A DNA stretch of 64,000 bases from NCBI GenBank assembly GCA_041652815.1, contig JBAZGN010000001.1:33363-97362 (forward strand). Direction: 5' to 3'. Below, in pieces: positions 8,522 to 35,700 of this stretch. Origin of the DNA: Candidatus Omnitrophota bacterium. Lineage in GTDB: Bacteria > Omnitrophota > Gorgyraeia > Duberdicusellales > 4484-171. How positions within the stretch are numbered: position 1 is the first letter of the stretch; every line of letters begins with the position of its first letter. Under the pieces are notes generated by a model. It saw nothing but the letters and a program-made list of their open reading frames with translations, was not told where the DNA came from and did no database searches. The position numbers and the translations under genes are program-made.

Positions 8522-8530
8522 TTAAATAAT

Positions 8531-8670: not shown

Positions 8671-8693
8671 TTAATTCTATGGCGGGAAATAGG

Positions 8694-9761: not shown

Positions 9762-9857
9762 ATCTTCCTCACTTCGTTCGGCAGAAACCAGATTACAGTT
9801 TATAGAAACCAGAAAAAATCAGCTCTGGTTTCTGTACTCTGGTTTCCGGTTTCTGTC

Positions 9858-14535: not shown

Positions 14536-14627
14536 TAGAAGCGGATTACCGCGGATGTTTACGCGGATTTACGCACGGTAATTTGCTTGCGTTTATCCGC
14601 GTTTAGATCCGCGGATATCCGCTTCTA
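14536..14627. repeat. 'gcggat' palindromic element, complete copy without cargo (arm1 tagaagcggattaccgcggatgtttacgcggat; arm2 atccgcgtttagatccgcggatatccgcttcta)
   Basis: Two inverted arms about 35 bp each separated by about 25 bp; the same arms recur at 20843-20885/21282-21320, 27536-27578/27975-28013 and 32673-32847. Confidence 0.75.
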
Positions 14628-15515
14628 TTTTAACAAATCTTCTGATTTTTCTACGCGCGCTTTCGCCTTAAAACTTTCGATTAATTTATTAACCTCTTGT
14701 TCGGTTTTGTCTTCCCGCAATGCGTCTTCAAGTTTTTTCTCTACGTCAGCGAAAGAAACCTCTCCACCGCCCTTTGCTTCTTCAACTTTTATTATATAAT
14801 ATTTGCCGTCATCGGCCTTGAAATAATTTGACAATCTTCCCGGCTCAACCGTAGCAATAGCTGCCCAAAATTTTGCGTTTTTTTGCAAATCTTCAAGCGA
14901 GGGAGTTAGCCAGCCGCGGTCTCCCCCCTTATCCCTGGAAGGCGCAACAGATTCCTGGCGGGCTATTTTCTCAAAATCTTCGCCCGTGAGTAACCTAACA
15001 TAAATATTCTTTGCATCAGCCTCGGAATTTACTGCTATTTCTCTAATCTTTATTTGGCGCGGTTCTTTAAAAAATTCCTTGTTTTTATCGTAAAAAGCGC
15101 GGACTTCTGCGTACGAAACGGTTACGCTTTTTTCTATATCTTTTCTAATTTTTGCCGCAAGCAGCGTGTCGCGCGTATCCCTCAATGCCCTTGCGATATC
15201 ATCACTTTTATCAATTCCTTTTTCTGTAGCTATTTGAGCCAGTATTTGGTTCTTGATAAGGTCGTTAAGAAACTTAATTTTGAAGTCTGTGCTGTTTACG
15301 TTTATGTTTTGCTGGGTAGCTATTGGCTCTATGCTTCTTAAATAATTTTTAAAATCGTCCAAGCCTATCGCCCAACTATTTACTCTGGCGAGCAGCGCGC
15401 CGTGAATAGCCACTTCTTCATTTGTTTCGGCTGGCTTCGGCGGAAAAACTTTATCACAGCCGATAAAAACTGCGATAAGAAATATAAGTGTAACAACTGG
15501 AAACGCCTTACGCAT
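14625..15515 (-). CDS. PrsA/SurA-like parvulin-type peptidyl-prolyl isomerase lipoprotein
   Basis: Lipobox-like FIGC; PpiC-type motif region IKIREIAV...ESVAPSRDKGGDRGWL. Confidence 0.6.
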   Translation of the reverse strand: MRKAFPVVTLIFLIAVFIGCDKVFPPKPAETNEEVAIHGALLARVNSWAIGLDDFKNYLRSIEPIATQQNINVNSTDFKIKFLNDLIKNQILAQIATEKGIDKSDDIARALRDTRDTLLAAKIRKDIEKSVTVSYAEVRAFYDKNKEFFKEPRQIKIREIAVNSEADAKNIYVRLLTGEDFEKIARQESVAPSRDKGGDRGWLTPSLEDLQKNAKFWAAIATVEPGRLSNYFKADDGKYYIIKVEEAKGGGEVSFADVEKKLEDALREDKTEQEVNKLIESFKAKARVEKSEDLLK

Positions 15516-15840
15516 TGAACCTCCTCTATAGTTATAAGTTTATCAATATAACCTTATTAAATCAAGATTTTTTTTAAAAATAAATCCGGCCAGGAAACTC
15601 ATCCCGTTTAGAGATTTATTCCTAACAGGATAAGCTGCATAATTTTTATCGTTGCCTTTGGGGCAAATTTAGTTTAGAATATAGCAATGAACCCAGCCCT
15701 TCCAAGGTGTTATACTTATCCAAACAGTATAGTAAATTTGTTAGGAACAAGGCTGGTTAGTTTAGGCTGCAAAAATAATTTTCAGAAATTTACCGTTTGA
15801 AATAATTCATAAAACACTACTCGAAAAAAGGAAGGGCTGG

Positions 15841-16425
15841 GTGAAAAAACCAGTAAAGATAACTCTCGATACCAGTATTTTCGTAAATCCCGATTCAAGA
15901 GTATTTTTTGGCCAAACCCCGGAGAATGCTTTGAAAAATTTTCTGGAAAAGCTGGAAAAACAAAATGATGTTTCCTGCTATATGCCTCCATCGGTTTATG
16001 AAGAACTGATGAAGTTTATGGAAAACAAACCCTCGCTCAAAGAAACGCTTCTTATCCAGAAGAAGCCGCCGGCCTCTTATGAAACGCCAATTCCTTCTAT
16101 ATTTCTGTATGAATTTATTGAAGAATTCCGGGCAAGAATAAATAAAGGCTTACGCATTGCCGAAAAATACGCAAGGCAGGAACTAAAAATAACGCCGCCG
16201 AAAGAAAAAACAGAAGAAGAAATAATAAAACGTTTAAGAGAAGAATACCGAGTGGCTCTTCGGGAAGGCATTATTGACAGTAAGGAAGATTTCGACCTTC
16301 TGCTTTTAGCTCGTGAGCTTGGCTCATTTCTAGCTACCTCAGACCAGGGCCTTGTAAAATGGGCACAAAAACTAGGCATACCCGCGCTATCCGCCGAGGA
16401 ACTAAAAGAAATTCTGGAGCATTAA
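15841..16425 (+). CDS. PIN-like protein resembling the HARP family (protein-only minimal RNase P, Aq_880-like)
   Basis: N-terminus ITLDTSIFVNP..., central YMPPSVYEEL, FLYEFIEEFRARINKGLRIAEK, C-terminal LATSDQGL; 194 aa, the size of HARP proteins. GTG start. Confidence 0.5.
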   Translation: MKKPVKITLDTSIFVNPDSRVFFGQTPENALKNFLEKLEKQNDVSCYMPPSVYEELMKFMENKPSLKETLLIQKKPPASYETPIPSIFLYEFIEEFRARINKGLRIAEKYARQELKITPPKEKTEEEIIKRLREEYRVALREGIIDSKEDFDLLLLARELGSFLATSDQGLVKWAQKLGIPALSAEELKEILEH

Positions 16426-16449
16426 ACATCGGCCTTCTTTTTTAATAAT

Positions 16450-18402
16450 ATGAAAAGCTATAAATTGACGCCTTTTTTTTCGACAACCGAAATAAATTAC
16501 GAAGAAAACCTAAACCCACAACAGTTAAAAGTCGTAAAAGAAGCTGACGGCCCTTCGCTTGTATTAGCAGGAGCAGGAAGCGGTAAAACCCGTGTGCTGA
16601 TTTACAGGCTTGCCTATTTACTCCAAAAAGGAGTTCCAGCCGAAAATATACTGCTTGTAACTTTTACAAACAAAGCTTCCAAAGAAATGATTCACCGGGC
16701 TGAAGTGCTCCTTAAATCAAGTTTATCCGGGCTTTGGGCTGGGACATTTCATCATGCCGGAAATATGATTTTAAGGCACGAGGCGCAAACTATAGGGTAC
16801 TCTGCAAACTTCACTATTATAGACAGGGAAGATTCAAAAGATTTGCTTGAGGATTGTATAGAAGAATTAGGTTATACAAAAGACGCAAAACTTTTTCCCA
16901 AAAAAGATATCATCTCAAATATTTACAGCATTTGCGTAAACTCGCTCAAGAAAGTAGAAGATGTAATTTGCGAAACCTACCCTCACATCGAGGAATATTC
17001 ATCTCATATCAAAAAAGTCCTTGCGCGGTATGAACAAAAGAAAAAACAAAGCAACACCATGGACTTTAATGATTTACTTAAATATTGGCTGGAAATTCTT
17101 AAGATAGACGCGCTTTGCAAAAAATATTCCGGAAATTTCAAATACATACTCGTTGATGAATATCAGGATACAAATCATATTCAGTTTGAAATAATCAAGC
17201 GCCTGGCATCAATCCATAAAAACATATTGGTCGTCGGAGACGACGCACAATCAATATATTCTTTTAGGGGCGCTGACATAAATAACCTTTTGGATTTTCC
17301 AAAAACTTTTGAAGGCGCAAAAATTTACAAGCTTGAAATAAATTATAGGTCTTCACCGCAAATTCTTTCATTAGCAAATAATATAATCACGCATAACATA
17401 AACCAGTTCCCCAAAGCCTTAAAGGCAGTTAAGGGCGCGGCGGAAAAACCACAAGCAGTAAAAACAAAAGATGTTTACGCGCAGGCAAAATTCGTAGCTC
17501 AGAAAGCGCTGGAACTGCACAACCAAGGCATACCGCTTCGCGAAATAGCCGTACTCTTTCGTTCGCACTTTCAGGTGTTGGAGCTGGAAATAGAACTAAT
17601 GAAAAGAAACATCCCCTATATTATGCGCGGTGGTGTGCGCTTCTTCGAACAGGCACACATAAAAGATGTTATGTCTTATCTTAAAATAATAAATAACCCC
17701 AATGATGAATTATCGTTTAAACGGGCGGTTTCGTTATATAAAGGAATAGGCAGAAGTTATGCTACAAAAATATGGAAAATGGTAGTTACCGAAAAAAAAT
17801 CCATAGATGAGGTGATAAAGGCGCTTCCCAAAAGACAGCAACAGGGCTTTCGTGAGTTTTCAAAAGTATTTGAAAAAATCAGGACTATTGAAAAACCCCA
17901 AAATGCCGTAAGAGAAATTTTATCTTTCTATAAAGACTACTGCTATCTTTCATTCGATAATCCCGACGACAGAATCCTTGACCTGGAAGAACTTGCAAAA
18001 ATGGCAGCGGATTATCCTACCGTAAGAAGGTTTCTTACTGAATTAAGTTCATTTGAAGAATTTAAAGGCGAGTCAATGCTGTCGGCAAACGAAAAAAGAG
18101 AATTCCTTACGCTTTCAACAATACATCAGGCAAAAGGCCTTGAGTGGGAAGCTGTATTTATCGTAGGCTTTAGCGATTATGAATTCCCCCATCCTAAAGC
18201 GCTGGGAAAAGACGAAGCCCTTGAAGAAGAAAGAAGGCTCTTTTACGTTGCAACCACAAGGGCTAAACAAGTGCTTTACATAACCTATCCGGAAGCAAAA
18301 TATACTTTTAAAAACGGGGTTATAATCTGCCGGCCGTCGATGTTCCTTAATGAAATACCCTTCTCGAATTACGAAGAGATGTATGTTGAGGATGATTTTT
18401 GA
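16450..18402 (+). CDS. UvrD/PcrA/Rep-family SF1 DNA helicase
   Basis: Motifs AGAGSGKT, TFTNKASKEM, VDEYQDTN, VGDDAQSIYSFRGA, TIHQAKGLEW, VATTRAKQVLY. Confidence 0.8.
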   Translation: MKSYKLTPFFSTTEINYEENLNPQQLKVVKEADGPSLVLAGAGSGKTRVLIYRLAYLLQKGVPAENILLVTFTNKASKEMIHRAEVLLKSSLSGLWAGTFHHAGNMILRHEAQTIGYSANFTIIDREDSKDLLEDCIEELGYTKDAKLFPKKDIISNIYSICVNSLKKVEDVICETYPHIEEYSSHIKKVLARYEQKKKQSNTMDFNDLLKYWLEILKIDALCKKYSGNFKYILVDEYQDTNHIQFEIIKRLASIHKNILVVGDDAQSIYSFRGADINNLLDFPKTFEGAKIYKLEINYRSSPQILSLANNIITHNINQFPKALKAVKGAAEKPQAVKTKDVYAQAKFVAQKALELHNQGIPLREIAVLFRSHFQVLELEIELMKRNIPYIMRGGVRFFEQAHIKDVMSYLKIINNPNDELSFKRAVSLYKGIGRSYATKIWKMVVTEKKSIDEVIKALPKRQQQGFREFSKVFEKIRTIEKPQNAVREILSFYKDYCYLSFDNPDDRILDLEELAKMAADYPTVRRFLTELSSFEEFKGESMLSANEKREFLTLSTIHQAKGLEWEAVFIVGFSDYEFPHPKALGKDEALEEERRLFYVATTRAKQVLYITYPEAKYTFKNGVIICRPSMFLNEIPFSNYEEMYVEDDF

Positions 18403-18878
18403 GAAGAAGAATCCAGGCTAAAAATATCCAGAATAACATCCGTATTGTTTGAATCTTCAAAAACCAATTCCATTTCAATATCAACAATATCTTCTTTGGC
18501 TGCGTCAATTCGGCCTTTATTTATAATAGGTAACAACGAAAATGCGGCAATTATGACTAAAGTAACAACGGCAATCTGCGGCCTGTAGGCTAAGGCAGAT
18601 ATCATGCCTTGTACGATAAAAACTATTCTTTCCATCAGGCTAGAAATAACCGATACTGGCTGAGTTTGCGTTTCTATTTGTTTTAAAATATCATTTAAGC
18701 TATCGCGCGAAATATCCACTTTTTCTTTTTCTGCAATACAAAGGAATTTATTTAAGCTTTCATAATTTTTGCTGCAGCGGCTGCAATGCAAAAAATGTTC
18801 TTCGATAGGCTTTCTTTCTTCTCCCTTTATTTCGTTATAGAAAAACAATAGCATTTGTTTCTTTGAAAGGCATTTCAT
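18369..18878 (-). CDS. Zinc-dependent (ZAS-type) anti-sigma factor with one TM helix
   Basis: HFLHCSRCSKNY contains HxxxCxxC; TM segment VTLVIIAAFSLLPI. Start taken at MKCLSKK (GGAGG RBS); directly downstream of the ECF sigma gene. Confidence 0.55.
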   Translation of the reverse strand: MKCLSKKQMLLFFYNEIKGEERKPIEEHFLHCSRCSKNYESLNKFLCIAEKEKVDISRDSLNDILKQIETQTQPVSVISSLMERIVFIVQGMISALAYRPQIAVVTLVIIAAFSLLPIINKGRIDAAKEDIVDIEMELVFEDSNNTDVILDIFSLDSSSQKSSSTYISS

Positions 18879-18945
18879 GATATAACCTCCATTAATGAGC
18901 ACATCATTTTTTCAAGTGTATCAACACGTAGAAAAAATGATAGTG

Positions 18946-19064
18946 CGAATTAACCCCCCACCACTTTTAGTGATGAGTAGTTTTTGTAAAACATTTCTTT
19001 TCTCTAAAACCAACCGCGTCTTACAACAAGATGCTTTCTAAAAGTGGTGGGGGGGTCGAATTCG
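18946..19064. repeat. Inverted repeat with 24-27 bp arms (cgaattaaccccccaccacttttag / ctaaaagtggtgggggggtcgaattcg) and a 67-bp spacer, between the sigma and anti-sigma genes
   Basis: Read directly from sequence; a duplicate copy sits at 25639-25757. Confidence 0.7.
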
Positions 19065-19107
19065 GCTACGCAAATTTTCTGCGCTTCTGGCTTGAAAATT
19101 TGCTGCC

Positions 19108-19659
19108 TCATTCGACCTCCATCTTTTTCTGCAAGGCGCCTACGGCTCGTTTTAAATGTGTCTTTACTGCGCTCTGAGAGCAGCCTATCGCGTTACTTAT
19201 CTCTGCCATGCTTAGCCCCTCATAGTGCCTTAATATAAATACATTTTTTTGCCTGGCCGGCAAATTTGAAATTTCTTTTCTTAATAATGCCTGCCTGTCT
19301 TTAAGGTCTAACTCTTCTTTCAAAGAAGCATTTTCAATTTTTGGCTCGCTTTTATATCTTGTGCCAAGATTAAATATACTGCGGCGCCGGCGTAAAAAAT
19401 CCAACGAAGTATTTATGCTTATCCGATAAATCCAGGTAGAAAGCTTTGAAGCATTTTTAAAATATTTAAGGCCGTTATGTATTTTTAAAAGCGAAACCTG
19501 CAAGGCGTCTTTTGCATCTTCCATATTTGCCAAATAACGGTAAGAAATATTTAGAATATCCGAATATATAAGCTTTGCCAGTTCAGAAAAGGCACTACTC
19601 TCACCGCCTATAAAACTATCCGCCAGCTTTTTTATATCTTCCTCTTTATGTTTAAGCAC
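19108..19659 (-). CDS. ECF (sigma-70 family group IV) RNA polymerase sigma factor
   Basis: Region 2 and region 4 features; C-terminal HTH LSMAEISNAIGCSQSAVKTHLKRA. Confidence 0.75.
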   Translation of the reverse strand: MLKHKEEDIKKLADSFIGGESSAFSELAKLIYSDILNISYRYLANMEDAKDALQVSLLKIHNGLKYFKNASKLSTWIYRISINTSLDFLRRRRSIFNLGTRYKSEPKIENASLKEELDLKDRQALLRKEISNLPARQKNVFILRHYEGLSMAEISNAIGCSQSAVKTHLKRAVGALQKKMEVE

Positions 19660-19667
19660 GTTTTATT

Positions 19668-20150
19668 TTATAAATTGTTTTCCATTGAACGATTCTTTCT
19701 GCGGTCTTGAATTCTATTTTTAAGCTCTTCATATTTCTGCGGGTCGTTTTCTTTAAGATAATTAAGCCGCTCTTTAAGATGCTCTCTTCTTTTGGCTTTT
19801 AACTCTTCATATTTTTGGGGATTGTTTTTCTTAAGTTCCGCAAGGCGGCTTCTTATCTTCGTTCTTGCCTCCTGTATCAGAGCTTTAAACTTTTCCGGGT
19901 CATTTTTTTCCAGAGCTTCAAGCTCTTGTTTTTTTGCAACAAGCTTTTCTTTTAAAATAGCTTTAAACTTTTCTTTATCGGTTTTTCTAAGCTCAATAAG
20001 CTCTTTTTTCTCGCTTTCCGGAAGCGCTTCAAAAACCAAAACTCTGGCTATTGCTTTTTCCCGGAAAGTATTTTTAGCATAAACGCTGTTTCCAAGAATA
20101 AAGATAACCATAAACAGAACCAGACAGATTCCAAAATATCTGATTTTCAT
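19668..20150 (-). CDS. Secreted coiled-coil repeat protein (periplasmic stress-protein-like)
   Basis: Signal peptide, then charged repeats (ENDPQKYEELK, KNDPEKFKALI, KNNPQKYEELK); immediately upstream of the ECF sigma gene in the same operon. Confidence 0.4.
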   Translation of the reverse strand: MKIRYFGICLVLFMVIFILGNSVYAKNTFREKAIARVLVFEALPESEKKELIELRKTDKEKFKAILKEKLVAKKQELEALEKNDPEKFKALIQEARTKIRSRLAELKKNNPQKYEELKAKRREHLKERLNYLKENDPQKYEELKNRIQDRRKNRSMENNL

Positions 20151-20199
20151 ACTATCACCTCGAATATTTAGACGGTTTAAAAGCGTAAAAAGTCTACCC

Positions 20200-20270
20200 C
20201 GTTACAGATAACAGAGTACAGAATACAGAATAATTTTTTATTTCTTCTCTGTTCTCTGTATCTATCGCGA
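20200..20270. repeat. Palindrome of 'acagagtacagaataca / tctctgttctctgtatct' units at the folE 3' end; duplicate copy at 26893-26963
   Basis: Read directly from sequence. Confidence 0.6.
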
Positions 20271-20822
20271 AGTAGAAATTAAGCTTAAAGCTTCCTGGCG
20301 GGTCTTTTGGTTTGTAAGAAAGATTCCCCTGACAACGGAAGTTGTAGTTAATGTCCCCGGTTTCTTCACCCCGCGCATTGACATGCAAAGATGCTCCGCT
20401 TCAATAACTACCATTACGCCTTTTGGTTTTAGTTTTTTCATAATTACATCGGCTACTTCTGTAGTTAAACGTTCCTGCACCTGAAGGCGCTTTGAAAGGA
20501 CATCCACAACCCTTGCTATTTTGCTTAAACCGGTTATGCGCTTATCGGGAATATAGGCAACGTGCGCTTTTCCTATAAAGGGAAGCATGTGGTGCTCGCA
20601 CATCGAATATAACGGTATTCCCTTCAAAAGTATAATTTCATCGTGCTTTTGCTCAAGGATAACTTCCAACTCTTCTTCTGCGTCCTTGAACTGCCCGCTT
20701 AAAATTTCTCCATACATTTCAGCTACCCGCGCAGGCGTTATCGCGATATCTTTCTTTGTTAAATCTGCGCCGAGTGCTTCCAAAATAAGCTTAACGCCTT
20801 GTTCGATTTTTTTCTTATCCAT
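20262..20822 (-). CDS. folE: GTP cyclohydrolase I
   Basis: CEHHMLPFIGKAHVAYIP, GLSKIARVV, RLQVQERLT, AEHLCMSMRGVKK; start taken at MDKKKIEQ (AGGAG RBS). The longer ORF extends into the palindromic element. Confidence 0.85.
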   Translation of the reverse strand: MDKKKIEQGVKLILEALGADLTKKDIAITPARVAEMYGEILSGQFKDAEEELEVILEQKHDEIILLKGIPLYSMCEHHMLPFIGKAHVAYIPDKRITGLSKIARVVDVLSKRLQVQERLTTEVADVIMKKLKPKGVMVVIEAEHLCMSMRGVKKPGTLTTTSVVRGIFLTNQKTRQEALSLISTSR

Positions 20823-20865
20823 CTTTTTGTACTCCTGTTTTATAGAAGCGGATTTCCGCGGATAT

Positions 20866-21273
20866 TTACGCGGATAGACACACGGCATTTAAACGCGCAA
20901 AGTCATAAACCCGTCTTACTATTTCAAGTTTTTTTGTACCAAAGTTTATTAAAAATCCTAACTTATAGTTAGAACCCCTTAGATAATACCAGAATTGTTT
21001 TTTATCTTCTTGAAGTAACATTGGTTTAACTTTAATCTCCATAATTATTTTATCATTTATTACAAAATCAGGAACATAGCTACCGACTTTTTCTCCTTTA
21101 TATAGAATATTAATTTGCTTTTGTTGTTCTACAGATAAATTTCTTTCCTTGAATTCTTTGACTAATGCTTTCTGAATTATTCCCTCCTTAAAAGCACTTC
21201 CGAAATGATTCCATACCTCAAAACATGCTCCTCTTATTTGATAAGATTCTTCTTCGTATAATAATTTACCCAT
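20866..21273 (-). CDS. GxxExxY-family small protein (PD-(D/E)XK-like fold family), nested between inverted arms of the gcggat element
   Basis: Conserved layout IRGACFEVWNHFGSAFKEG...YKGEKVGSYVPDFVINDKIIMEIKVKP...LGFLINFG typical of the GxxExxY family; flanked by arm1 (20843-20885) and arm2 (21282-21320). Confidence 0.6.
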   Translation of the reverse strand: MGKLLYEEESYQIRGACFEVWNHFGSAFKEGIIQKALVKEFKERNLSVEQQKQINILYKGEKVGSYVPDFVINDKIIMEIKVKPMLLQEDKKQFWYYLRGSNYKLGFLINFGTKKLEIVRRVYDFARLNAVCLSA

Positions 21274-21317
21274 ATTTCTGTGCGTTCATCCGCGTTTAGA
21301 TCCGCGGGAATCCGCTT

Positions 21318-22208
21318 CTATTTTAACAAATCTTCTGATTTTTCTACGCGCGCTTTCGCCTTAAAACTTTCGATTAATTTATTAACCTCTTGTTCGGTTT
21401 TGTCTTCCCGCAATGCGTCTTCAAGTTTTTTCTCTACGTCAGCGAAAGAAACCTCTCCACCGCCCTTTGCTTCTTCAACTTTTATTATATAATATTTGCC
21501 GTCATCGGCCTTGAAATAATTTGACAATCTTCCCGGCTCAACCGTAGCAATAGCTGCCCAAAATTTTGCGTTTTTTTGCAAATCTTCAAGCGAGGGAGTT
21601 AGCCAGCCGCGGTCTCCCCCCTTATCCCTGGAAGGCGCAACAGATTCCTGGCGGGCTATTTTCTCAAAATCTTCGCCCGTGAGTAACCTAACATAAATAT
21701 TCTTTGCATCAGCCTCGGAATTTACTGCTATTTCTCTAATCTTTATTTGGCGCGGTTCTTTAAAAAATTCCTTGTTTTTATCGTAAAAAGCGCGGACTTC
21801 TGCGTACGAAACGGTTACGCTTTTTTCTATATCTTTTCTAATTTTTGCCGCAAGCAGCGTGTCGCGCGTATCCCTCAATGCCCTTGCGATATCATCACTT
21901 TTATCAATTCCTTTTTCTGTAGCTATTTGAGCCAGTATTTGGTTCTTGATAAGGTCGTTAAGAAACTTAATTTTGAAGTCTGTGCTGTTTACGTTTATGT
22001 TTTGCTGGGTAGCTATTGGCTCTATGCTTCTTAAATAATTTTTAAAATCGTCCAAGCCTATCGCCCAACTATTTACTCTGGCGAGCAGCGCGCCGTGAAT
22101 AGCCACTTCTTCATTTGTTTCGGCTGGCTTCGGCGGAAAAACTTTATCACAGCCGATAAAAACTGCGATAAGAAATATAAGTGTAACAACTGGAAACGCC
22201 TTACGCAT
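21318..22208 (-). CDS. PrsA/SurA-like PPIase (duplicate copy)
   Basis: Identical translation to 14625..15515. Confidence 0.6.
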   Translation of the reverse strand: MRKAFPVVTLIFLIAVFIGCDKVFPPKPAETNEEVAIHGALLARVNSWAIGLDDFKNYLRSIEPIATQQNINVNSTDFKIKFLNDLIKNQILAQIATEKGIDKSDDIARALRDTRDTLLAAKIRKDIEKSVTVSYAEVRAFYDKNKEFFKEPRQIKIREIAVNSEADAKNIYVRLLTGEDFEKIARQESVAPSRDKGGDRGWLTPSLEDLQKNAKFWAAIATVEPGRLSNYFKADDGKYYIIKVEEAKGGGEVSFADVEKKLEDALREDKTEQEVNKLIESFKAKARVEKSEDLLK

Positions 22209-22533
22209 TGAACCTCCTCTATAGTTATAAGTTTATCAATATAACCTTATTAAATCAAGATTTTTTTTAAAAATAAATCCGGCCAGGAAACTCATCCCGT
22301 TTAGAGATTTATTCCTAACAGGATAAGCTGCATAATTTTTATCGTTGCCTTTGGGGCAAATTTAGTTTAGAATATAGCAATGAACCCAGCCCTTCCAAGG
22401 TGTTATACTTATCCAAACAGTATAGTAAATTTGTTAGGAACAAGGCTGGTTAGTTTAGGCTGCAAAAATAATTTTCAGAAATTTACCGTTTGAAATAATT
22501 CATAAAACACTACTCGAAAAAAGGAAGGGCTGG

Positions 22534-23118
22534 GTGAAAAAACCAGTAAAGATAACTCTCGATACCAGTATTTTCGTAAATCCCGATTCAAGAGTATTTT
22601 TTGGCCAAACCCCGGAGAATGCTTTGAAAAATTTTCTGGAAAAGCTGGAAAAACAAAATGATGTTTCCTGCTATATGCCTCCATCGGTTTATGAAGAACT
22701 GATGAAGTTTATGGAAAACAAACCCTCGCTCAAAGAAACGCTTCTTATCCAGAAGAAGCCGCCGGCCTCTTATGAAACGCCAATTCCTTCTATATTTCTG
22801 TATGAATTTATTGAAGAATTCCGGGCAAGAATAAATAAAGGCTTACGCATTGCCGAAAAATACGCAAGGCAGGAACTAAAAATAACGCCGCCGAAAGAAA
22901 AAACAGAAGAAGAAATAATAAAACGTTTAAGAGAAGAATACCGAGTGGCTCTTCGGGAAGGCATTATTGACAGTAAGGAAGATTTCGACCTTCTGCTTTT
23001 AGCTCGTGAGCTTGGCTCATTTCTAGCTACCTCAGACCAGGGCCTTGTAAAATGGGCACAAAAACTAGGCATACCCGCGCTATCCGCCGAGGAACTAAAA
23101 GAAATTCTGGAGCATTAA
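22534..23118 (+). CDS. HARP-like PIN protein (duplicate copy)
   Basis: Identical translation to 15841..16425. Confidence 0.5.
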   Translation: MKKPVKITLDTSIFVNPDSRVFFGQTPENALKNFLEKLEKQNDVSCYMPPSVYEELMKFMENKPSLKETLLIQKKPPASYETPIPSIFLYEFIEEFRARINKGLRIAEKYARQELKITPPKEKTEEEIIKRLREEYRVALREGIIDSKEDFDLLLLARELGSFLATSDQGLVKWAQKLGIPALSAEELKEILEH

Positions 23119-23142
23119 ACATCGGCCTTCTTTTTTAATAAT

Positions 23143-25095
23143 ATGAAAAGCTATAAATTGACGCCTTTTTTTTCGACAACCGAAATAAATTACGAAGAAA
23201 ACCTAAACCCACAACAGTTAAAAGTCGTAAAAGAAGCTGACGGCCCTTCGCTTGTATTAGCAGGAGCAGGAAGCGGTAAAACCCGTGTGCTGATTTACAG
23301 GCTTGCCTATTTACTCCAAAAAGGAGTTCCAGCCGAAAATATACTGCTTGTAACTTTTACAAACAAAGCTTCCAAAGAAATGATTCACCGGGCTGAAGTG
23401 CTCCTTAAATCAAGTTTATCCGGGCTTTGGGCTGGGACATTTCATCATGCCGGAAATATGATTTTAAGGCACGAGGCGCAAACTATAGGGTACTCTGCAA
23501 ACTTCACTATTATAGACAGGGAAGATTCAAAAGATTTGCTTGAGGATTGTATAGAAGAATTAGGTTATACAAAAGACGCAAAACTTTTTCCCAAAAAAGA
23601 TATCATCTCAAATATTTACAGCATTTGCGTAAACTCGCTCAAGAAAGTAGAAGATGTAATTTGCGAAACCTACCCTCACATCGAGGAATATTCATCTCAT
23701 ATCAAAAAAGTCCTTGCGCGGTATGAACAAAAGAAAAAACAAAGCAACACCATGGACTTTAATGATTTACTTAAATATTGGCTGGAAATTCTTAAGATAG
23801 ACGCGCTTTGCAAAAAATATTCCGGAAATTTCAAATACATACTCGTTGATGAATATCAGGATACAAATCATATTCAGTTTGAAATAATCAAGCGCCTGGC
23901 ATCAATCCATAAAAACATATTGGTCGTCGGAGACGACGCACAATCAATATATTCTTTTAGGGGCGCTGACATAAATAACCTTTTGGATTTTCCAAAAACT
24001 TTTGAAGGCGCAAAAATTTACAAGCTTGAAATAAATTATAGGTCTTCACCGCAAATTCTTTCATTAGCAAATAATATAATCACGCATAACATAAACCAGT
24101 TCCCCAAAGCCTTAAAGGCAGTTAAGGGCGCGGCGGAAAAACCACAAGCAGTAAAAACAAAAGATGTTTACGCGCAGGCAAAATTCGTAGCTCAGAAAGC
24201 GCTGGAACTGCACAACCAAGGCATACCGCTTCGCGAAATAGCCGTACTCTTTCGTTCGCACTTTCAGGTGTTGGAGCTGGAAATAGAACTAATGAAAAGA
24301 AACATCCCCTATATTATGCGCGGTGGTGTGCGCTTCTTCGAACAGGCACACATAAAAGATGTTATGTCTTATCTTAAAATAATAAATAACCCCAATGATG
24401 AATTATCGTTTAAACGGGCGGTTTCGTTATATAAAGGAATAGGCAGAAGTTATGCTACAAAAATATGGAAAATGGTAGTTACCGAAAAAAAATCCATAGA
24501 TGAGGTGATAAAGGCGCTTCCCAAAAGACAGCAACAGGGCTTTCGTGAGTTTTCAAAAGTATTTGAAAAAATCAGGACTATTGAAAAACCCCAAAATGCC
24601 GTAAGAGAAATTTTATCTTTCTATAAAGACTACTGCTATCTTTCATTCGATAATCCCGACGACAGAATCCTTGACCTGGAAGAACTTGCAAAAATGGCAG
24701 CGGATTATCCTACCGTAAGAAGGTTTCTTACTGAATTAAGTTCATTTGAAGAATTTAAAGGCGAGTCAATGCTGTCGGCAAACGAAAAAAGAGAATTCCT
24801 TACGCTTTCAACAATACATCAGGCAAAAGGCCTTGAGTGGGAAGCTGTATTTATCGTAGGCTTTAGCGATTATGAATTCCCCCATCCTAAAGCGCTGGGA
24901 AAAGACGAAGCCCTTGAAGAAGAAAGAAGGCTCTTTTACGTTGCAACCACAAGGGCTAAACAAGTGCTTTACATAACCTATCCGGAAGCAAAATATACTT
25001 TTAAAAACGGGGTTATAATCTGCCGGCCGTCGATGTTCCTTAATGAAATACCCTTCTCGAATTACGAAGAGATGTATGTTGAGGATGATTTTTGA
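23143..25095 (+). CDS. UvrD-family helicase (duplicate copy)
   Basis: Identical translation to 16450..18402. Confidence 0.8.
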   Translation: MKSYKLTPFFSTTEINYEENLNPQQLKVVKEADGPSLVLAGAGSGKTRVLIYRLAYLLQKGVPAENILLVTFTNKASKEMIHRAEVLLKSSLSGLWAGTFHHAGNMILRHEAQTIGYSANFTIIDREDSKDLLEDCIEELGYTKDAKLFPKKDIISNIYSICVNSLKKVEDVICETYPHIEEYSSHIKKVLARYEQKKKQSNTMDFNDLLKYWLEILKIDALCKKYSGNFKYILVDEYQDTNHIQFEIIKRLASIHKNILVVGDDAQSIYSFRGADINNLLDFPKTFEGAKIYKLEINYRSSPQILSLANNIITHNINQFPKALKAVKGAAEKPQAVKTKDVYAQAKFVAQKALELHNQGIPLREIAVLFRSHFQVLELEIELMKRNIPYIMRGGVRFFEQAHIKDVMSYLKIINNPNDELSFKRAVSLYKGIGRSYATKIWKMVVTEKKSIDEVIKALPKRQQQGFREFSKVFEKIRTIEKPQNAVREILSFYKDYCYLSFDNPDDRILDLEELAKMAADYPTVRRFLTELSSFEEFKGESMLSANEKREFLTLSTIHQAKGLEWEAVFIVGFSDYEFPHPKALGKDEALEEERRLFYVATTRAKQVLYITYPEAKYTFKNGVIICRPSMFLNEIPFSNYEEMYVEDDF

Positions 25096-25571
25096 GAAGA
25101 AGAATCCAGGCTAAAAATATCCAGAATAACATCCGTATTGTTTGAATCTTCAAAAACCAATTCCATTTCAATATCAACAATATCTTCTTTGGCTGCGTCA
25201 ATTCGGCCTTTATTTATAATAGGTAACAACGAAAATGCGGCAATTATGACTAAAGTAACAACGGCAATCTGCGGCCTGTAGGCTAAGGCAGATATCATGC
25301 CTTGTACGATAAAAACTATTCTTTCCATCAGGCTAGAAATAACCGATACTGGCTGAGTTTGCGTTTCTATTTGTTTTAAAATATCATTTAAGCTATCGCG
25401 CGAAATATCCACTTTTTCTTTTTCTGCAATACAAAGGAATTTATTTAAGCTTTCATAATTTTTGCTGCAGCGGCTGCAATGCAAAAAATGTTCTTCGATA
25501 GGCTTTCTTTCTTCTCCCTTTATTTCGTTATAGAAAAACAATAGCATTTGTTTCTTTGAAAGGCATTTCAT
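25062..25571 (-). CDS. ZAS-type anti-sigma factor (duplicate copy)
   Basis: Identical translation to 18369..18878. Confidence 0.55.
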   Translation of the reverse strand: MKCLSKKQMLLFFYNEIKGEERKPIEEHFLHCSRCSKNYESLNKFLCIAEKEKVDISRDSLNDILKQIETQTQPVSVISSLMERIVFIVQGMISALAYRPQIAVVTLVIIAAFSLLPIINKGRIDAAKEDIVDIEMELVFEDSNNTDVILDIFSLDSSSQKSSSTYISS

Positions 25572-25800
25572 GATATAACCTCCATTAATGAGCACATCAT
25601 TTTTTCAAGTGTATCAACACGTAGAAAAAATGATAGTGCGAATTAACCCCCCACCACTTTTAGTGATGAGTAGTTTTTGTAAAACATTTCTTTTCTCTAA
25701 AACCAACCGCGTCTTACAACAAGATGCTTTCTAAAAGTGGTGGGGGGGTCGAATTCGGCTACGCAAATTTTCTGCGCTTCTGGCTTGAAAATTTGCTGCC

Positions 25801-26352
25801 TCATTCGACCTCCATCTTTTTCTGCAAGGCGCCTACGGCTCGTTTTAAATGTGTCTTTACTGCGCTCTGAGAGCAGCCTATCGCGTTACTTATCTCTGCC
25901 ATGCTTAGCCCCTCATAGTGCCTTAATATAAATACATTTTTTTGCCTGGCCGGCAAATTTGAAATTTCTTTTCTTAATAATGCCTGCCTGTCTTTAAGGT
26001 CTAACTCTTCTTTCAAAGAAGCATTTTCAATTTTTGGCTCGCTTTTATATCTTGTGCCAAGATTAAATATACTGCGGCGCCGGCGTAAAAAATCCAACGA
26101 AGTATTTATGCTTATCCGATAAATCCAGGTAGAAAGCTTTGAAGCATTTTTAAAATATTTAAGGCCGTTATGTATTTTTAAAAGCGAAACCTGCAAGGCG
26201 TCTTTTGCATCTTCCATATTTGCCAAATAACGGTAAGAAATATTTAGAATATCCGAATATATAAGCTTTGCCAGTTCAGAAAAGGCACTACTCTCACCGC
26301 CTATAAAACTATCCGCCAGCTTTTTTATATCTTCCTCTTTATGTTTAAGCAC
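25801..26352 (-). CDS. ECF sigma factor (duplicate copy)
   Basis: Identical translation to 19108..19659. Confidence 0.75.
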   Translation of the reverse strand: MLKHKEEDIKKLADSFIGGESSAFSELAKLIYSDILNISYRYLANMEDAKDALQVSLLKIHNGLKYFKNASKLSTWIYRISINTSLDFLRRRRSIFNLGTRYKSEPKIENASLKEELDLKDRQALLRKEISNLPARQKNVFILRHYEGLSMAEISNAIGCSQSAVKTHLKRAVGALQKKMEVE

Positions 26353-26360
26353 GTTTTATT

Positions 26361-26843
26361 TTATAAATTGTTTTCCATTGAACGATTCTTTCTGCGGTCT
26401 TGAATTCTATTTTTAAGCTCTTCATATTTCTGCGGGTCGTTTTCTTTAAGATAATTAAGCCGCTCTTTAAGATGCTCTCTTCTTTTGGCTTTTAACTCTT
26501 CATATTTTTGGGGATTGTTTTTCTTAAGTTCCGCAAGGCGGCTTCTTATCTTCGTTCTTGCCTCCTGTATCAGAGCTTTAAACTTTTCCGGGTCATTTTT
26601 TTCCAGAGCTTCAAGCTCTTGTTTTTTTGCAACAAGCTTTTCTTTTAAAATAGCTTTAAACTTTTCTTTATCGGTTTTTCTAAGCTCAATAAGCTCTTTT
26701 TTCTCGCTTTCCGGAAGCGCTTCAAAAACCAAAACTCTGGCTATTGCTTTTTCCCGGAAAGTATTTTTAGCATAAACGCTGTTTCCAAGAATAAAGATAA
26801 CCATAAACAGAACCAGACAGATTCCAAAATATCTGATTTTCAT
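26361..26843 (-). CDS. Secreted coiled-coil repeat protein (duplicate copy)
   Basis: Identical translation to 19668..20150. Confidence 0.4.
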   Translation of the reverse strand: MKIRYFGICLVLFMVIFILGNSVYAKNTFREKAIARVLVFEALPESEKKELIELRKTDKEKFKAILKEKLVAKKQELEALEKNDPEKFKALIQEARTKIRSRLAELKKNNPQKYEELKAKRREHLKERLNYLKENDPQKYEELKNRIQDRRKNRSMENNL

Positions 26844-26954
26844 ACTATCACCTCGAATATTTAGACGGTTTAAAAGCGTAAAAAGTCTACCCCGTTACAG
26901 ATAACAGAGTACAGAATACAGAATAATTTTTTATTTCTTCTCTGTTCTCTGTAT

Positions 26955-27515
26955 CTATCGCGAAGTAGAAATTAAGCTTAAAGCTTCCTGGCGGGTCTTT
27001 TGGTTTGTAAGAAAGATTCCCCTGACAACGGAAGTTGTAGTTAATGTCCCCGGTTTCTTCACCCCGCGCATTGACATGCAAAGATGCTCCGCTTCAATAA
27101 CTACCATTACGCCTTTTGGTTTTAGTTTTTTCATAATTACATCGGCTACTTCTGTAGTTAAACGTTCCTGCACCTGAAGGCGCTTTGAAAGGACATCCAC
27201 AACCCTTGCTATTTTGCTTAAACCGGTTATGCGCTTATCGGGAATATAGGCAACGTGCGCTTTTCCTATAAAGGGAAGCATGTGGTGCTCGCACATCGAA
27301 TATAACGGTATTCCCTTCAAAAGTATAATTTCATCGTGCTTTTGCTCAAGGATAACTTCCAACTCTTCTTCTGCGTCCTTGAACTGCCCGCTTAAAATTT
27401 CTCCATACATTTCAGCTACCCGCGCAGGCGTTATCGCGATATCTTTCTTTGTTAAATCTGCGCCGAGTGCTTCCAAAATAAGCTTAACGCCTTGTTCGAT
27501 TTTTTTCTTATCCAT
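26955..27515 (-). CDS. folE: GTP cyclohydrolase I (duplicate copy)
   Basis: Identical translation to 20262..20822. Confidence 0.85.
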   Translation of the reverse strand: MDKKKIEQGVKLILEALGADLTKKDIAITPARVAEMYGEILSGQFKDAEEELEVILEQKHDEIILLKGIPLYSMCEHHMLPFIGKAHVAYIPDKRITGLSKIARVVDVLSKRLQVQERLTTEVADVIMKKLKPKGVMVVIEAEHLCMSMRGVKKPGTLTTTSVVRGIFLTNQKTRQEALSLISTSR

Positions 27516-27558
27516 CTTTTTGTACTCCTGTTTTATAGAAGCGGATTTCCGCGGATAT

Positions 27559-27966
27559 TTACGCGGATAGACACACGGCATTTAAACGCGCAAAGTCATA
27601 AACCCGTCTTACTATTTCAAGTTTTTTTGTACCAAAGTTTATTAAAAATCCTAACTTATAGTTAGAACCCCTTAGATAATACCAGAATTGTTTTTTATCT
27701 TCTTGAAGTAACATTGGTTTAACTTTAATCTCCATAATTATTTTATCATTTATTACAAAATCAGGAACATAGCTACCGACTTTTTCTCCTTTATATAGAA
27801 TATTAATTTGCTTTTGTTGTTCTACAGATAAATTTCTTTCCTTGAATTCTTTGACTAATGCTTTCTGAATTATTCCCTCCTTAAAAGCACTTCCGAAATG
27901 ATTCCATACCTCAAAACATGCTCCTCTTATTTGATAAGATTCTTCTTCGTATAATAATTTACCCAT
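27559..27966 (-). CDS. GxxExxY-family protein (duplicate copy)
   Basis: Identical translation to 20866..21273; flanked by arms at 27536-27578 and 27975-28013. Confidence 0.6.
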   Translation of the reverse strand: MGKLLYEEESYQIRGACFEVWNHFGSAFKEGIIQKALVKEFKERNLSVEQQKQINILYKGEKVGSYVPDFVINDKIIMEIKVKPMLLQEDKKQFWYYLRGSNYKLGFLINFGTKKLEIVRRVYDFARLNAVCLSA

Positions 27967-28010
27967 ATTTCTGTGCGTTCATCCGCGTTTAGATCCGCGG
28001 GAATCCGCTT

Positions 28011-29504: not shown

Positions 29505-29600
29505 AATTTAGCCAAATTAAACACTCCATAGATACTAGATGCTGGATACTGGATACTTGTTGTTTTTTACTAGCATATAAGATCAAGTATCTAGCATCTA
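29505..29600. repeat. Palindrome of 'gatact/agtatc' units (atactagatgctggatactggatacttg ... caagtatctagcatcta)
   Basis: Read directly; between folC and mnmE. Confidence 0.6.
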
Positions 29601-30983: not shown

Positions 30984-30997
30984 GTGTCTATGGTTTT

Positions 30998-31136
30998 ATA
31001 AATAACCAAGCTCCAATTTCCAATAACCAAATCCCAATAATCAAACGGGGGAATAAATAGAATTGCTTGGTAATTGGTTATTGGGTGTTAGGTATTGAAA
31101 TTTGTTTGGTTATTGTATCTTGGTTATTGGTTATTA
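30998..31136. repeat. Family A palindrome (aataaccaa/ttggttatt units), copy 2
   Basis: aaataaccaagctccaatttccaataaccaaatcccaataatcaaac ... ttggtaattggttattgggtgttaggtattgaaatttgtttggttattgtatcttggttattggttatt. Confidence 0.7.
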
Positions 31137-31142
31137 TATGAA

Positions 31143-32657: not shown

Positions 32658-32672
32658 TATAGTACTTGTTTG

Positions 32673-32847
32673 TAGAAGCGGATATCCGCGGATATTGACG
32701 CGGATTTACGCCCGCTAATTGAATCAGGAAACCATTAATAAAATTCCTGATTCTTTTCCATCGTATTAATTCTTCTCAAATAAACAAATTAACTTACCTT
32801 ATTACTGTGCGTCTATCCGCGTTTAGATCCGCGAGAATCCGCTTCTA
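32673..32847. repeat. gcggat palindromic element, complete copy with about 100-bp AT-rich spacer and no ORF
   Basis: arm1 tagaagcggatatccgcggatattgacgcggat (32673-32705); arm2 atccgcgtttagatccgcgagaatccgcttcta (32815-32847). Confidence 0.75.
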
Positions 32848-33537: not shown

Positions 33538-33555
33538 TTTATTGAACTCCTTGTA

Positions 33556-33672
33556 TTGATGTTACGAAGGTTACAGATGTTACGAAAGTTACGAATGTTA
33601 CATTAAAAACATCGTGATTTAGTGTAACCTTCGTAACCTACGTAACCTGCGTAACTTTCGTAACCTTATAAT
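33556..33672. repeat. Palindrome of 'gttacgaa/ttcgtaac' units
   Basis: gttacgaaggttacagatgttacgaaagttacgaatgttaca ... gtgtaaccttcgtaacctacgtaacctgcgtaactttcgtaacc. Confidence 0.7.
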
Positions 33673-35682: not shown

Positions 35683-35700
35683 ATTTTCTTCCTCCTTTCA

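What the first reader, a model, noticed from the sequence alone, without database searches (positions are those of the whole stretch)
20843..21320. GxxExxY-family gene embedded between the inverted arms of a dispersed palindromic element: a REP/RAYT-like nuclease-repeat partnership
The gcggat element occurs four times. The first is a complete palindrome with a 25-bp spacer (14536-14627). The fourth is a palindrome with a ~100-bp AT-rich spacer and no ORF (32673-32847). The two duplicate copies in between carry a 135-aa GxxExxY-family ORF, a family with a PD-(D/E)XK nuclease-like fold, exactly between arm1 (20843-20885) and arm2 (21282-21320), and again at 27536-28013. The C-terminal codons of the gene run into arm1. 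The layout mirrors REP elements flanking RAYT transposases. It suggests the GxxExxY protein is the cognate nuclease or mobilisation factor of this repeat family, or that the element is a homing site. The same arm served as the recombination substrate for the 6.7-kb duplication.
Basis: inference. Interest (0 to 1): 0.75.

Follow-up and report, generated by a model that had tools for sequence, protein, structure and literature searches.

The report
Nuclease gene nested in palindromic repeat
A small nuclease gene sits exactly between the two arms of a repeated DNA palindrome, and the same gene-plus-arms unit recurs across many bacterial phyla with gene-less copies scattered around it, so it looks like an undescribed family of selfish DNA elements, though movement has not been shown.

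Summary
The window (an Omnitrophota MAG) holds four copies of a palindrome built from GCGGAT words. Two copies carry an identical 135-aa GxxExxY / PD-(D/E)XK ORF, one is a 92-nt empty hairpin, and one is a 175-nt decayed copy that keeps the start of the gene.

Comparative data support a gene-arm partnership. In 67 of 78 usable homologous metagenome loci the gene lies between inverted arrays of (A)CGCNGA(T/A) words. Similar word arms flank four of nine homologues at 27-55% identity in cultured bacteria (Bacteroides, Bernardetia, Sphingomonas, Treponema), and a fifth (Gemmatirosa) has a word hairpin downstream. The protein (dN/dS about 0.09) and the arms (4-14 times slower than synonymous sites) are both under purifying selection. 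About 90-nt empty copies reach 17 or more in 138 kb of a related MAG, in either orientation. In CPR bacteria the unit lies in frame inside LepA, RecG, AsnB and glycosyltransferases.

It is not REP/RAYT in the strict sense, because there is no HUH transposase. The best reading is a selfish palindromic element whose RecB-like nuclease acts on its own arms, with MITE-like empty derivatives. Mobility and nuclease specificity are untested. I found no prior description.

The parts
20843..21320 (-). E2: gene-bearing palindromic element (5' arm, GxxExxY ORF, 3' arm, read on the minus strand). It is the junction copy of the tandem duplication.
   Evidence: (I16)
21280..21320 (-). 5' arm of E2 in gene sense: TAGAAGCGGATTCCCGCGGATCTAAACGCGGATGAACGCAC. 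Its first three bases, TAG (21318-21320), are the stop codon of the upstream rotamase gene (21318-22208).
20866..21273 (-). 135-aa GxxExxY / PDDEXK_3 ORF with the RecB-like motif set E30, P68-D69, E79-x-K81 and Q93-xxx-Y97. No promoter of its own was found and there is no obvious SD sequence.
20843..20885 (-). 3' arm of E2 in gene sense. It overlaps the last 6 codons and the stop of the ORF, and ends 20 nt before the folE start codon (folE 20262-20822), leaving the AGGAG RBS intact.
27536..28013 (-). E3: the second, identical gene-bearing element (ORF 27559-27966). Its terminal TAG (28011-28013) is the stop codon of MnmE (28011-29504). The same MnmE-element-folE site is occupied in the related MAG locus L098.
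14536..14627 (-). E1: 92-nt gene-less hairpin between the rotamase gene (its stop is the element's TAG) and the RcpC-like gene. It has the same length and architecture as the ~90-nt copies in other MAGs. The 3' half of its loop resembles the 3' end of the gene-bearing form.
32673..32847 (-). E4: decayed element. Both arms are present, plus about 35 nt of the degenerate 5' end of the GxxExxY gene (ATG mutated) and unrelated filler. It is absent from the orthologous site in L098.
14628..28013 (.). Two perfect 6,693-bp tandem units (14628-21320 and 21321-28013). The crossover lies within ATCCGCTTCTATTTT, the 15 nt shared by the outer ends of E1 and E3.

Best explanation
The feature is a small selfish palindromic DNA element. 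Its full form is about 480 bp. It has a 5' arm (TAGAAGC followed by 3-4 copies of the word (A/C)CGCNGAT at roughly 11-nt spacing), a gene of about 130 codons for a minimal RecB/Cas4-like PD-(D/E)XK nuclease (GxxExxY), and an inverted 3' arm.

Shown:
- Gene and arms are inherited and conserved together across phyla.
- The gene has no promoter of its own. It is co-oriented with the host operon, and the element's terminal TAG often serves as the upstream gene's stop codon.
- Gene-less hairpins of about 90 nt with the same arms are dispersed in either orientation.
- Intermediate decay stages exist (E4, and the catalytic-core deletion in P0029).

Inferred:
- The nuclease, probably as an oligomer, recognises the phased words on the arms at the DNA level.
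- It makes or processes breaks at the element or at empty copies, so that recombinational repair copies the element (homing-like) or rearranges DNA between copies.
- The empty hairpins are non-autonomous deletion derivatives that persist and amplify like MITEs or REPINs.
- The 6.7-kb duplication in this window is a by-product of exchange between two copies at their termini.
For: Unit conservation:
- 67 of 78 usable metagenome loci encoding homologues (50-87% identity) have flanks that form inverted repeats better than all 100 shuffles. Word density in the 80-nt flanks is 3.65 per 100 nt against 0.27 in the background. TAGAAGC (up to 1 mismatch) lies upstream in 44 of 80.
- Among the 75 gene-bearing elements whose arms aligned, all but four (L158, L183, L185, L191) have GC-N-GA-T/A words on both arms. 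N tracks the protein clades.

Distant relatives:
- Homologues at 27-55% identity in cultured bacteria carry related word arms: Bacteroides finegoldii CACAGAGG, Bernardetia CACAGAGA, Sphingomonas CGCGAAG (between fabD and fabG) and Treponema CACGGAT.
- In Gemmatirosa, word arrays (CGCGGAT) or a complete word hairpin (CGCAGAGG) lie downstream of the gene only.

Selection:
- dN/dS has a median of 0.09. For the window against L116, dN is 0.069 and dS is 0.95.
- Arm divergence is 0.07-0.30 where dS is 0.95-1.36.

Nuclease:
- HMM matches; invariant or near-invariant E30, PD69, E79xK81 and Q93xxxY97.

Empties and decay:
- At least 17 strictly paired ~90-nt copies in 138 kb of MAG JBAZGZ01, all with one shared architecture.
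- E4 keeps the gene's start.
- P0029, at the orthologous MnmE/folE site, has lost 24 codons including PD..ExK.
- The E4 site is differently occupied in the relative.

DNA level rather than RNA level:
- No G-U excess on the sense strand: GU 174 against AC 217.
- The orientation of empties against flanking genes is about random, 14 to 11.

Exchange at termini:
- The duplication junction is confirmed in L002 and L201.
Against: - No movement was observed. There is no clear target-site duplication beyond a possible TA, and no filled-versus-empty pair at one site.
- Gene-bearing copies are rare relative to empties. The only gene seen in 138 kb of the related MAG is catalytically dead, so empties may not depend on it.
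- A hydrolytic nuclease alone cannot integrate DNA.
- Several observations would also fit a host-beneficial role. These are the strong purifying selection and the long vertical persistence: the same two LepA sites in Saccharibacteria and Liptonbacteria, with the domain about as diverged as LepA, and the same MnmE/folE site in two Omnitrophota.
- The hairpin architecture is not specific to the nuclease. The window has a dozen or more other word hairpins without genes.
- 23S_rRNA_IVP four-helix-bundle genes sit in analogous hairpins.
- Two distant homologues (Prevotella, Fusobacteria) have direct rather than inverted flanking repeats, and one (Persicobacter) has none.
Confidence: 0.55

Rival explanations
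1. The hairpins are host cis-elements, for example REP-like mRNA stabilisers, terminators or RNase III sites placed between the stop codon and the next RBS. On this view the GxxExxY gene is only a passenger that colonised the loop, as S23p does in 23S rRNA intervening sequences, and the arms are conserved for the host's sake.
For: Almost every long intergenic gap in this co-directional gene array holds a word hairpin that starts at the stop codon and ends 10-20 nt before the next start codon. The site orthologous to E4 in L098 holds a different hairpin rather than nothing. Unrelated IVP genes occupy similar hairpins.
Against: The word type CNCNGA is tied to the GxxExxY family across phyla, whereas IVP arms use unrelated words. 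There is no G-U bias on the transcribed strand. Empties occur in both orientations. In CPR bacteria, 19 of 46 arrays lie inside open reading frames, where a terminator or processing site would be harmful.
Confidence: 0.17
2. The nuclease serves the host, for example by processing hairpins or cruciforms in a palindrome-rich genome, by acting as a recombination or repair exonuclease, or in defence. On this view the arms are its regulatory or loading sites, and the unit is domesticated rather than selfish.
For: dN/dS is about 0.09. The catalytic residues are kept even in in-frame copies inside LepA, RecG and AsnB. There is long vertical persistence at the same sites. The fold is RecB/Cas4-like.
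Against: Occupancy is patchy and the gene decays (E4 and P0029). There is no PADLOC or PHROGs match. The unit is inserted into unrelated operons and proteins with no conserved partner gene. Multi-copy gene-less derivatives are typical of selfish DNA.
Confidence: 0.15
3. The element is an RNA-level intervening sequence. The arms would pair in the transcript and the insert would be cut out, by RNase III or by the encoded EndA-like PD-(D/E)XK enzyme, and in CPR genes the exons would be rejoined.
Against: Intragenic copies are in frame and stop-free across both arms and the nuclease. 12 of 80 loci read on for 60 or more codons into the downstream host ORF (two of these are also open upstream), and 1 more is open for 60 or more codons from the upstream side only; 99 of 149 top representatives are longer than 170 aa. 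That constraint is needless if the insert were spliced out. There is no G-U excess. The best fold matches are DNA nucleases.
Confidence: 0.05

Closest known systems
REP / RAYT (REPIN) systems of Proteobacteria
   Same: A single-copy gene is flanked by inverted copies of a short palindromic repeat that is also dispersed, gene-less, in many intergenic sites. The repeats sit just after stop codons.
   Different: RAYT is an HUH Y1 (IS200/IS605-type) transposase acting on ssDNA hairpins that carry a GTAG motif. Here the protein is a 135-aa RecB-like PD-(D/E)XK nuclease. The arms are about 42-nt arrays of 3-4 phased CGCNGAT words, and intragenic in-frame copies exist.
MITEs with a cognate autonomous element (e.g. 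Correia/CREE, ERIC, Stowaway-type TA-flanked MITEs)
   Same: About 90-nt gene-less copies share termini with a longer coding element. They are multi-copy, occur in both orientations, and have conserved termini (TA-GAAGC...GCTTC-TA).
   Different: There is no DDE or other transposase, and a target-site duplication is not demonstrable.
Homing endonuclease genes, especially the PD-(D/E)XK homing endonuclease I-Ssp6803I (from my own knowledge, not checked here)
   Same: A small PD-(D/E)XK nuclease is encoded inside an otherwise neutral insert. The gene is promoter-less and co-oriented with the host. A degeneration cycle is visible, and insertions lie at conserved sites of conserved genes (LepA, RecG).
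   Different: There is no intron or intein, and the 'carrier' is a DNA palindrome. The motif set is RecB/Cas4-like (QxxxY). Cleavage of empty sites is untested.
23S rRNA intervening sequences with the S23p / 23S_rRNA_IVP ORF
   Same: A long imperfect stem encloses a small ORF. Sister elements with IVP genes in word hairpins were found in the same metagenomes and contigs (L091, L164, L169 and others).
   Different: The element is not in rRNA and carries a different protein family. No sign of RNA-level pairing was found.
Rickettsia palindromic elements (RPE) (from my own knowledge, not checked here)
   Same: In CPR relatives the palindromic repeats are inserted in frame and stop-free inside protein-coding genes, at loops that tolerate insertions.
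   Different: RPEs carry no gene. In this window all copies are intergenic.

Membership tests
GxxExxY protein (TIGR04256) / Pfam PDDEXK_3 (PF13366) | Profile HMM match above the curated cut-off | tested here: met
   PF13366 scored 112.9 bits against a cut-off of 22. TIGR04256 scored 111 bits against a cut-off of 35.
GxxExxY protein (TIGR04256) / Pfam PDDEXK_3 (PF13366) | PD-(D/E)XK catalytic motif and fold | tested here: met
REP/RAYT (REPIN) | The associated gene encodes an HUH Y1 transposase (IS200/IS605 TnpA-like) | tested here: not met
   The only Pfam and NCBIfam hits are PDDEXK_3 and GxxExxY. The fold is restriction-endonuclease-like.
REP/RAYT (REPIN) | The gene is flanked by inverted copies of the repeat, which is also dispersed and gene-less in intergenic DNA | tested here: met
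   Window copies E1-E4. At least 17 paired copies in 138 kb of MAG JBAZGZ01.
REP/RAYT (REPIN) | REP sequence: a 20-40-nt imperfect palindrome with a conserved 5' GTAG | tested here: not met
   The arms are about 42 nt, start with TAGAAGC and consist of repeated CGCNGAT words.
MITE plus autonomous transposon | Short non-coding multi-copy element sharing terminal inverted repeats with a coding element | tested here: met
MITE plus autonomous transposon | Target-site duplication | tested here: inconclusive
   Only TA, which is itself part of the palindromic terminus, is constant. The flanks show no other direct repeat.
MITE plus autonomous transposon | The encoded protein is a transposase capable of strand transfer | tested here: not met
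   The protein is a hydrolytic PD-(D/E)XK nuclease only. No other ORF lies in the element.
Homing endonuclease gene | The nuclease cleaves the gene-less allele and the gene is copied in by repair | not testable with these tools
   This needs biochemistry or genetics. The only indirect hint is that the E1-side flank is joined to a gene-bearing arm in L002 and in the window, which a tandem duplication explains equally well.
23S rRNA intervening sequence | Located in a 23S rRNA helix and excised by RNase III | tested here: not met
   No rRNA is present in the window, where Rfam at gathering score finds only a c-di-GMP-I riboswitch. All four copies lie between protein genes.
Rickettsia-palindromic-element-like in-frame repeats | Palindromic repeat inserted in frame inside ORFs | tested here: not met
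   Not met for the window copies, which are all intergenic. Met in CPR relatives, where 19 of 46 arrays lie in open frames and insertions are seen in LepA, RecG, AsnB and glycosyltransferases.

The most novel reading that the evidence does not exclude
GxxExxY elements are a previously unrecognised, very widespread superfamily of autonomous selfish DNA. The family has 16,453 50%-identity cluster representatives at E<=1e-3. On this reading, a minimal RecB-like nuclease recognises phased CGCNGAT-type word arrays on its own palindromic arms and drives copying of the element. It leaves MITE-like hairpins in Omnitrophota and thousands of in-frame, translated insertions in essential CPR proteins. Together with the parallel 23S_rRNA_IVP hairpin elements, this would also explain where 23S rRNA intervening sequences come from.
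Probability: 0.35. Interest if true: 0.9.

Novelty: new variant of a known kind. Interest (0 to 1): 0.78.

Why it matters
GxxExxY/PDDEXK_3 is a large family of unknown function. This search found 16,453 cluster representatives, and Steczkiewicz et al. 2012 (PMC3424549) list it as 'Unknown'.

Tying the family to a specific, conserved DNA partner gives it a testable function for the first time. The partner is a pair of inverted arrays of CNCNGA words, and short oligonucleotides would be enough to test binding and cleavage.

If the nuclease mobilises the palindromes, this is a new enzyme class for repeat-gene partnerships alongside RAYT/REP. It would also explain several things:
- why Omnitrophota and CPR assemblies fragment at these genes;
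- why CPR housekeeping proteins (LepA, RecG, AsnB, glycosyltransferases, prepilins) carry odd 150-190-aa insertions;
- how palindromic repeats seed rearrangements such as the 6.7-kb duplication seen here.

The parallel with 23S_rRNA_IVP genes in other word hairpins links the finding to the long-standing question of where rRNA intervening sequences originate.

Tried and rejected
- Rfam, both at gathering score on the whole window and at permissive E-value on E1, found no family for the hairpin.
- A PDB sequence search with the family profile gave nothing meaningful.
- PADLOC and PHROGs gave no hit.
- IMG/VR viral contigs contained neither the gene subfamily nor the arm pattern, so a phage vector is not supported.
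- Literature searches on GxxExxY, PDDEXK_3, PF13366/TIGR04256, IVS protein plus inverted repeat, Omnitrophota palindromes and CPR in-frame palindromic insertions found no description of this association.
- RNA-structure reading. The G-U versus A-C test on 75 gene-bearing elements showed no sense-strand bias. The orientation of empties was about random, but by a crude A/T-richness criterion. I therefore rejected this as the main explanation.
- Target-site duplication. The flanks of 25 or so empties show none beyond TA.
- Empty-site comparison. The site in L098 orthologous to E4 holds a different hairpin, so the exact insertion boundaries could not be read.
- I first took the 6.7-kb duplication for an assembly artefact, because L001 shows a single unit. 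I withdrew that view. L002 and L201 from another assembly contain both junctions, and L001 may be a collapsed repeat.
- Protein-word covariation. The variable base N of GCNGAT tracks the protein clades, but this cannot be separated from shared ancestry, so I did not use it as evidence for direct recognition.
- The genome-wide census in this organism was not possible.
Full report
**1. Observation**

The window is 38.6% G+C and nearly all genes are on the minus strand. The 135-aa protein is 100% identical to a protein from a Candidatus Omnitrophica MAG, on an 810,962-bp contig.

The pattern GCGGATNNCCGCGGAT occurs 8 times, which is four elements with two arms each. The chance expectation is 0.15. 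The four elements are:
- E1, 14536-14627, a 92-nt hairpin. As ssDNA it folds at -35.5 kcal/mol, z = -9.5.
- E2, 20843-21320, and E3, 27536-28013. Their 42-nt arms are 83% complementary and 396 nt apart.
- E4, 32673-32847.

E2 and E3 each enclose a 135-aa ORF on the minus strand, whose last six codons and stop lie in the arm. The ORF matches PDDEXK_3 at 1.4e-32 and TIGR04256 GxxExxY at 4e-32.

**2. Local anatomy, read on the coding (minus) strand**
- Each element begins with TAGAAGC. In E1, E2 and E3 that TAG is the stop codon of the upstream gene (rotamase for E1 and E2, MnmE for E3). In E4 a TAA immediately precedes it.
- Each element ends 16-20 nt before the next start codon, which leaves the RBS intact.
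- No promoter-like site precedes the nuclease ORF.
- The arms consist of helices formed by the words GCGGAT / CCGCGGAT / CGCGGAT at spacings of 10-12 nt, separated by non-complementary spacers.

**3. The duplication**

Units 14628-21320 and 21321-28013 are identical, with 0 mismatches in 6,693 bp. E2 is E3-type through its last distinguishing base and then continues into E1's flank. The exchange therefore lies within the shared 15 nt ATCCGCTTCTATTTT.

An independent assembly contains both junctions. L002 is 100% identical over 7,753 nt and runs into the E2 gene from the rotamase side. L201, from the same sample, has rotamase-E1-RcpC. L001 shows a single unit, which may be a variant or a collapsed repeat.

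**4. Decay series**

E4 aligns to E2 over its first ~80 nt. That stretch includes about 35 nt of the gene's 5' end, with the ATG lost. The 3' half of E1's loop resembles the sequence at the gene's 3' end.

Locus L098, from Omnitrophota MAG JBAZGZ01, is syntenic with window 27038-33539 at 68-84% nucleotide identity. It carries the element at the same MnmE/folE site. Its protein, P0029, has lost 24 codons including PD..ExK. At the site orthologous to E4, L098 has an unrelated 59-nt hairpin.

**5. Is the gene-arm association general?**

*Close homologues.* A metagenome scan found 506 relatives, of which 80 loci were kept.
- In 67 of 78 usable loci the flanks are inverted repeats that beat all 100 shuffles.
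- Word density in the 80-nt flanks is 13.5 times the background.
- 44 of 80 have TAGAAGC upstream.
- The words are GC-N-GA-T/A almost throughout, and N tracks the protein clades.

*Distant homologues.* These are at 27-55% identity in cultured bacteria.
- They are likewise squeezed, co-directionally, between housekeeping genes: radA/FAD-dependent protein, ade/manC and fabD/fabG.
- Four of nine have inverted arms of related words: CACAGAGG, CACAGAGA, CGCGAAG and CACGGAT. A fifth, Gemmatirosa, has a CGCAGAGG word hairpin downstream of one gene copy and a CGCGGAT array downstream of another.
- Prevotella and Fusobacteria have direct flanking repeats, and one homologue has none.

*Selection.* The median dN/dS is 0.09. 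For element pairs with dS of 0.95-1.36, arm divergence is only 0.07-0.30. Gene and arms are therefore one functional, co-conserved unit.

**6. Empty copies**

The hits are in Omnitrophota, MAGs labelled Planctomycetia, many CPR lineages, Elusimicrobia, Pyrinomonadaceae and others.

Most are hairpins of about 90 nt with a constant architecture: TAGAAGCGGAT-NN-CCGCGGAT-CTAAA-CGCGGAT-AA-ACGC-loop-GCGT-AA-ATCCGCG-TAGAT-ATCCGCGG-NN-ATCCGCTTCTA.

MAG JBAZGZ01 has at least 17 strictly paired copies in the 138 kb held, and one defective gene. The orientation of empties relative to flanking genes is about random, 14 to 11, by a crude criterion.

**7. RNA level or DNA level?**

In 75 gene-bearing elements, arm mismatches that would be G-U on the sense strand number 174. 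Those that would be A-C number 217. There is thus no sign of selection for pairing in the transcript. No Rfam family matches.

**8. The protein**
- The alignment shows E30, P68-D69, E79-x-K81 and Q93-xxx-Y97 as invariant or nearly invariant. From general knowledge of nuclease families, this is the RecB/Cas4/lambda-exonuclease motif set.
- There is no PDB sequence relative, and no PADLOC or PHROGs family. Neither the gene nor the arms occur in IMG/VR.
- The family has 16,453 50%-identity representatives at E<=1e-3.

**9. Wider context found on the way**

(a) The window holds a dozen or more other 'word hairpins' with the same architecture but different words, in the same stop-codon-to-RBS position.

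(b) In related loci, 23S_rRNA_IVP (PF05635) genes are nested in analogous hairpins. Their words are unrelated and highly variable.

(c) In CPR bacteria the arm-nuclease-arm unit is in frame and stop-free inside host genes.
- The hosts include LepA (the same two sites in a Saccharibacteria MAG and a Liptonbacteria MAG, with the domain about as diverged as LepA), RecG (between the DEAD and Helicase_C domains), asparagine synthase and glycosyltransferases. It also lies directly before the prepilin G|FTLxE motif.
- 19 of 46 CPR arrays lie in open frames, against 1 of 40 in Omnitrophota.
- The frame constraint argues that the inserts are translated, not spliced out.

**10. Interpretation**

The unit behaves like selfish DNA.
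- It is promoter-less, compact and co-oriented with its host.
- It is inserted in unrelated operons and proteins, is patchy in occurrence and decays.
- It is accompanied by gene-less multi-copy derivatives.

The word type is conserved with this protein family even at about 30% protein identity, whereas IVP arms vary freely. This is best explained if the words are the nuclease's DNA sites. That step is inferred, not shown.

Because a hydrolytic nuclease cannot integrate DNA, I favour break-induced copying or exchange between copies (homing-like) over true transposition. The terminal-microhomology duplication in this window is consistent with that.

The rivals are set out with their tests in the Rival explanations section. 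They are host cis-element with a passenger gene, domesticated host nuclease, and RNA-level intervening sequence.

**11. Comparison and novelty**

The layout matches REP/RAYT and MITE/autonomous-element pairs, but membership of each fails on the enzyme. It resembles homing endonuclease genes in logic, 23S rRNA IVS/S23p in form, and Rickettsia palindromic elements in the CPR intragenic lifestyle.

I found no publication linking GxxExxY to palindromic arms. The only functional statement found lists PDDEXK_3 as 'Unknown', with multiple transfers (PMC3424549).

My verdict is a new variant of a known kind (a repeat-gene selfish partnership), well supported as a unit and unproven in mechanism.

Noticed in passing
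window 8522-8693, 9762-9857, 20151-20261, 29505-29597, 30984-31142, 33538-33672, 35683-36072, 38327-38629, 41873-41983, 43181-43308, 52173-52245, 52826-53017, 54865-55442, 62824-62932: Nearly every long intergenic gap holds a long imperfect hairpin built from one short word repeated at 9-12-nt spacing (AACCAA, GAAACCAG, ACAGAG, CUAGAU, GGUUACG, CACAGAU, CGUAACCG, ACGUAACA, AAUCACAA and others). Each starts at the upstream stop codon and ends just before the next RBS. Several families recur within the window. Their origin and function are unknown.
   Followed up: partly
L164 4275-4777, L169 808-1276, L091 4422-4880; also L181, L132, L186/L190, L185, L157: 23S_rRNA_IVP (PF05635, four-helix-bundle, bAvd-like) genes are nested between inverted word arrays, just as GxxExxY is, but with unrelated and highly variable words. 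Several lie within 1 kb of a GxxExxY element. There is no IVP gene in the window.
   Followed up: partly
L019 180-2543(-), L049 400-2829(-), L097, L133, L153, L171; proteins P0142, P0146, P0150, P0154, P0160, P0164, P0193: In CPR bacteria, arm-GxxExxY-arm units and empty hairpins are in frame inside LepA (the same two sites in two classes), RecG (between the DEAD and Helicase_C domains), asparagine synthase and GT4 glycosyltransferases. 99 of 149 top family representatives are longer than 170 aa. The catalytic residues are retained.
   Followed up: partly
L122, L123, L184, L174 (about 2470-3500 in each): The GxxExxY unit reads in frame straight into a type IV prepilin-like G|FTLxE N-terminus. 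If so, the nuclease would be made as an oversized leader peptide that the prepilin peptidase could cut off.
   Followed up: no
window 6702-6809 (-): c-di-GMP-I riboswitch (RF01051, 42.9 bits against a gathering score of 35), upstream of the ORF at 6490-6903 region.
   Followed up: no
window 43181-43264 and 54906-54989: An 84-nt module, 86% complementary between the two sites, sits in opposite orientation in two intergenic regions 11.6 kb apart. Each copy is nested inside an ACGUAACA-type word hairpin. It contains its own small hairpins (GUCCACU...AGUGGAC and CGCC...GGCG).
   Followed up: no
window 55003-55164 (-): A 53-aa rubredoxin-like ORF (CxxC...CxxC; [16 protein letters not shown]...) lies in the 578-nt 'intergenic' gap, between two word hairpins. 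It is too short for the default ORF list.
   Followed up: no
window 19719-19913 (and the duplicate at 26412-26606): The 160-aa ORF at 19668-20150 (no Pfam hit on record) contains three 78-nt (26-codon) tandem repeats encoding a lysine/glutamate-rich motif (NDPEKFKAL / NNPQKYEELK).
   Followed up: no
L203 (Prevotella nigrescens) 1330-2010; L197 (Fusobacteria bacterium ZRK30) 1390-1990: In these two distant GxxExxY loci the flanking repeats are direct, not inverted (for example CAGATTTAATCCGTGTACCTAT on both sides). This may be a different arrangement of the same partnership.
   Followed up: no
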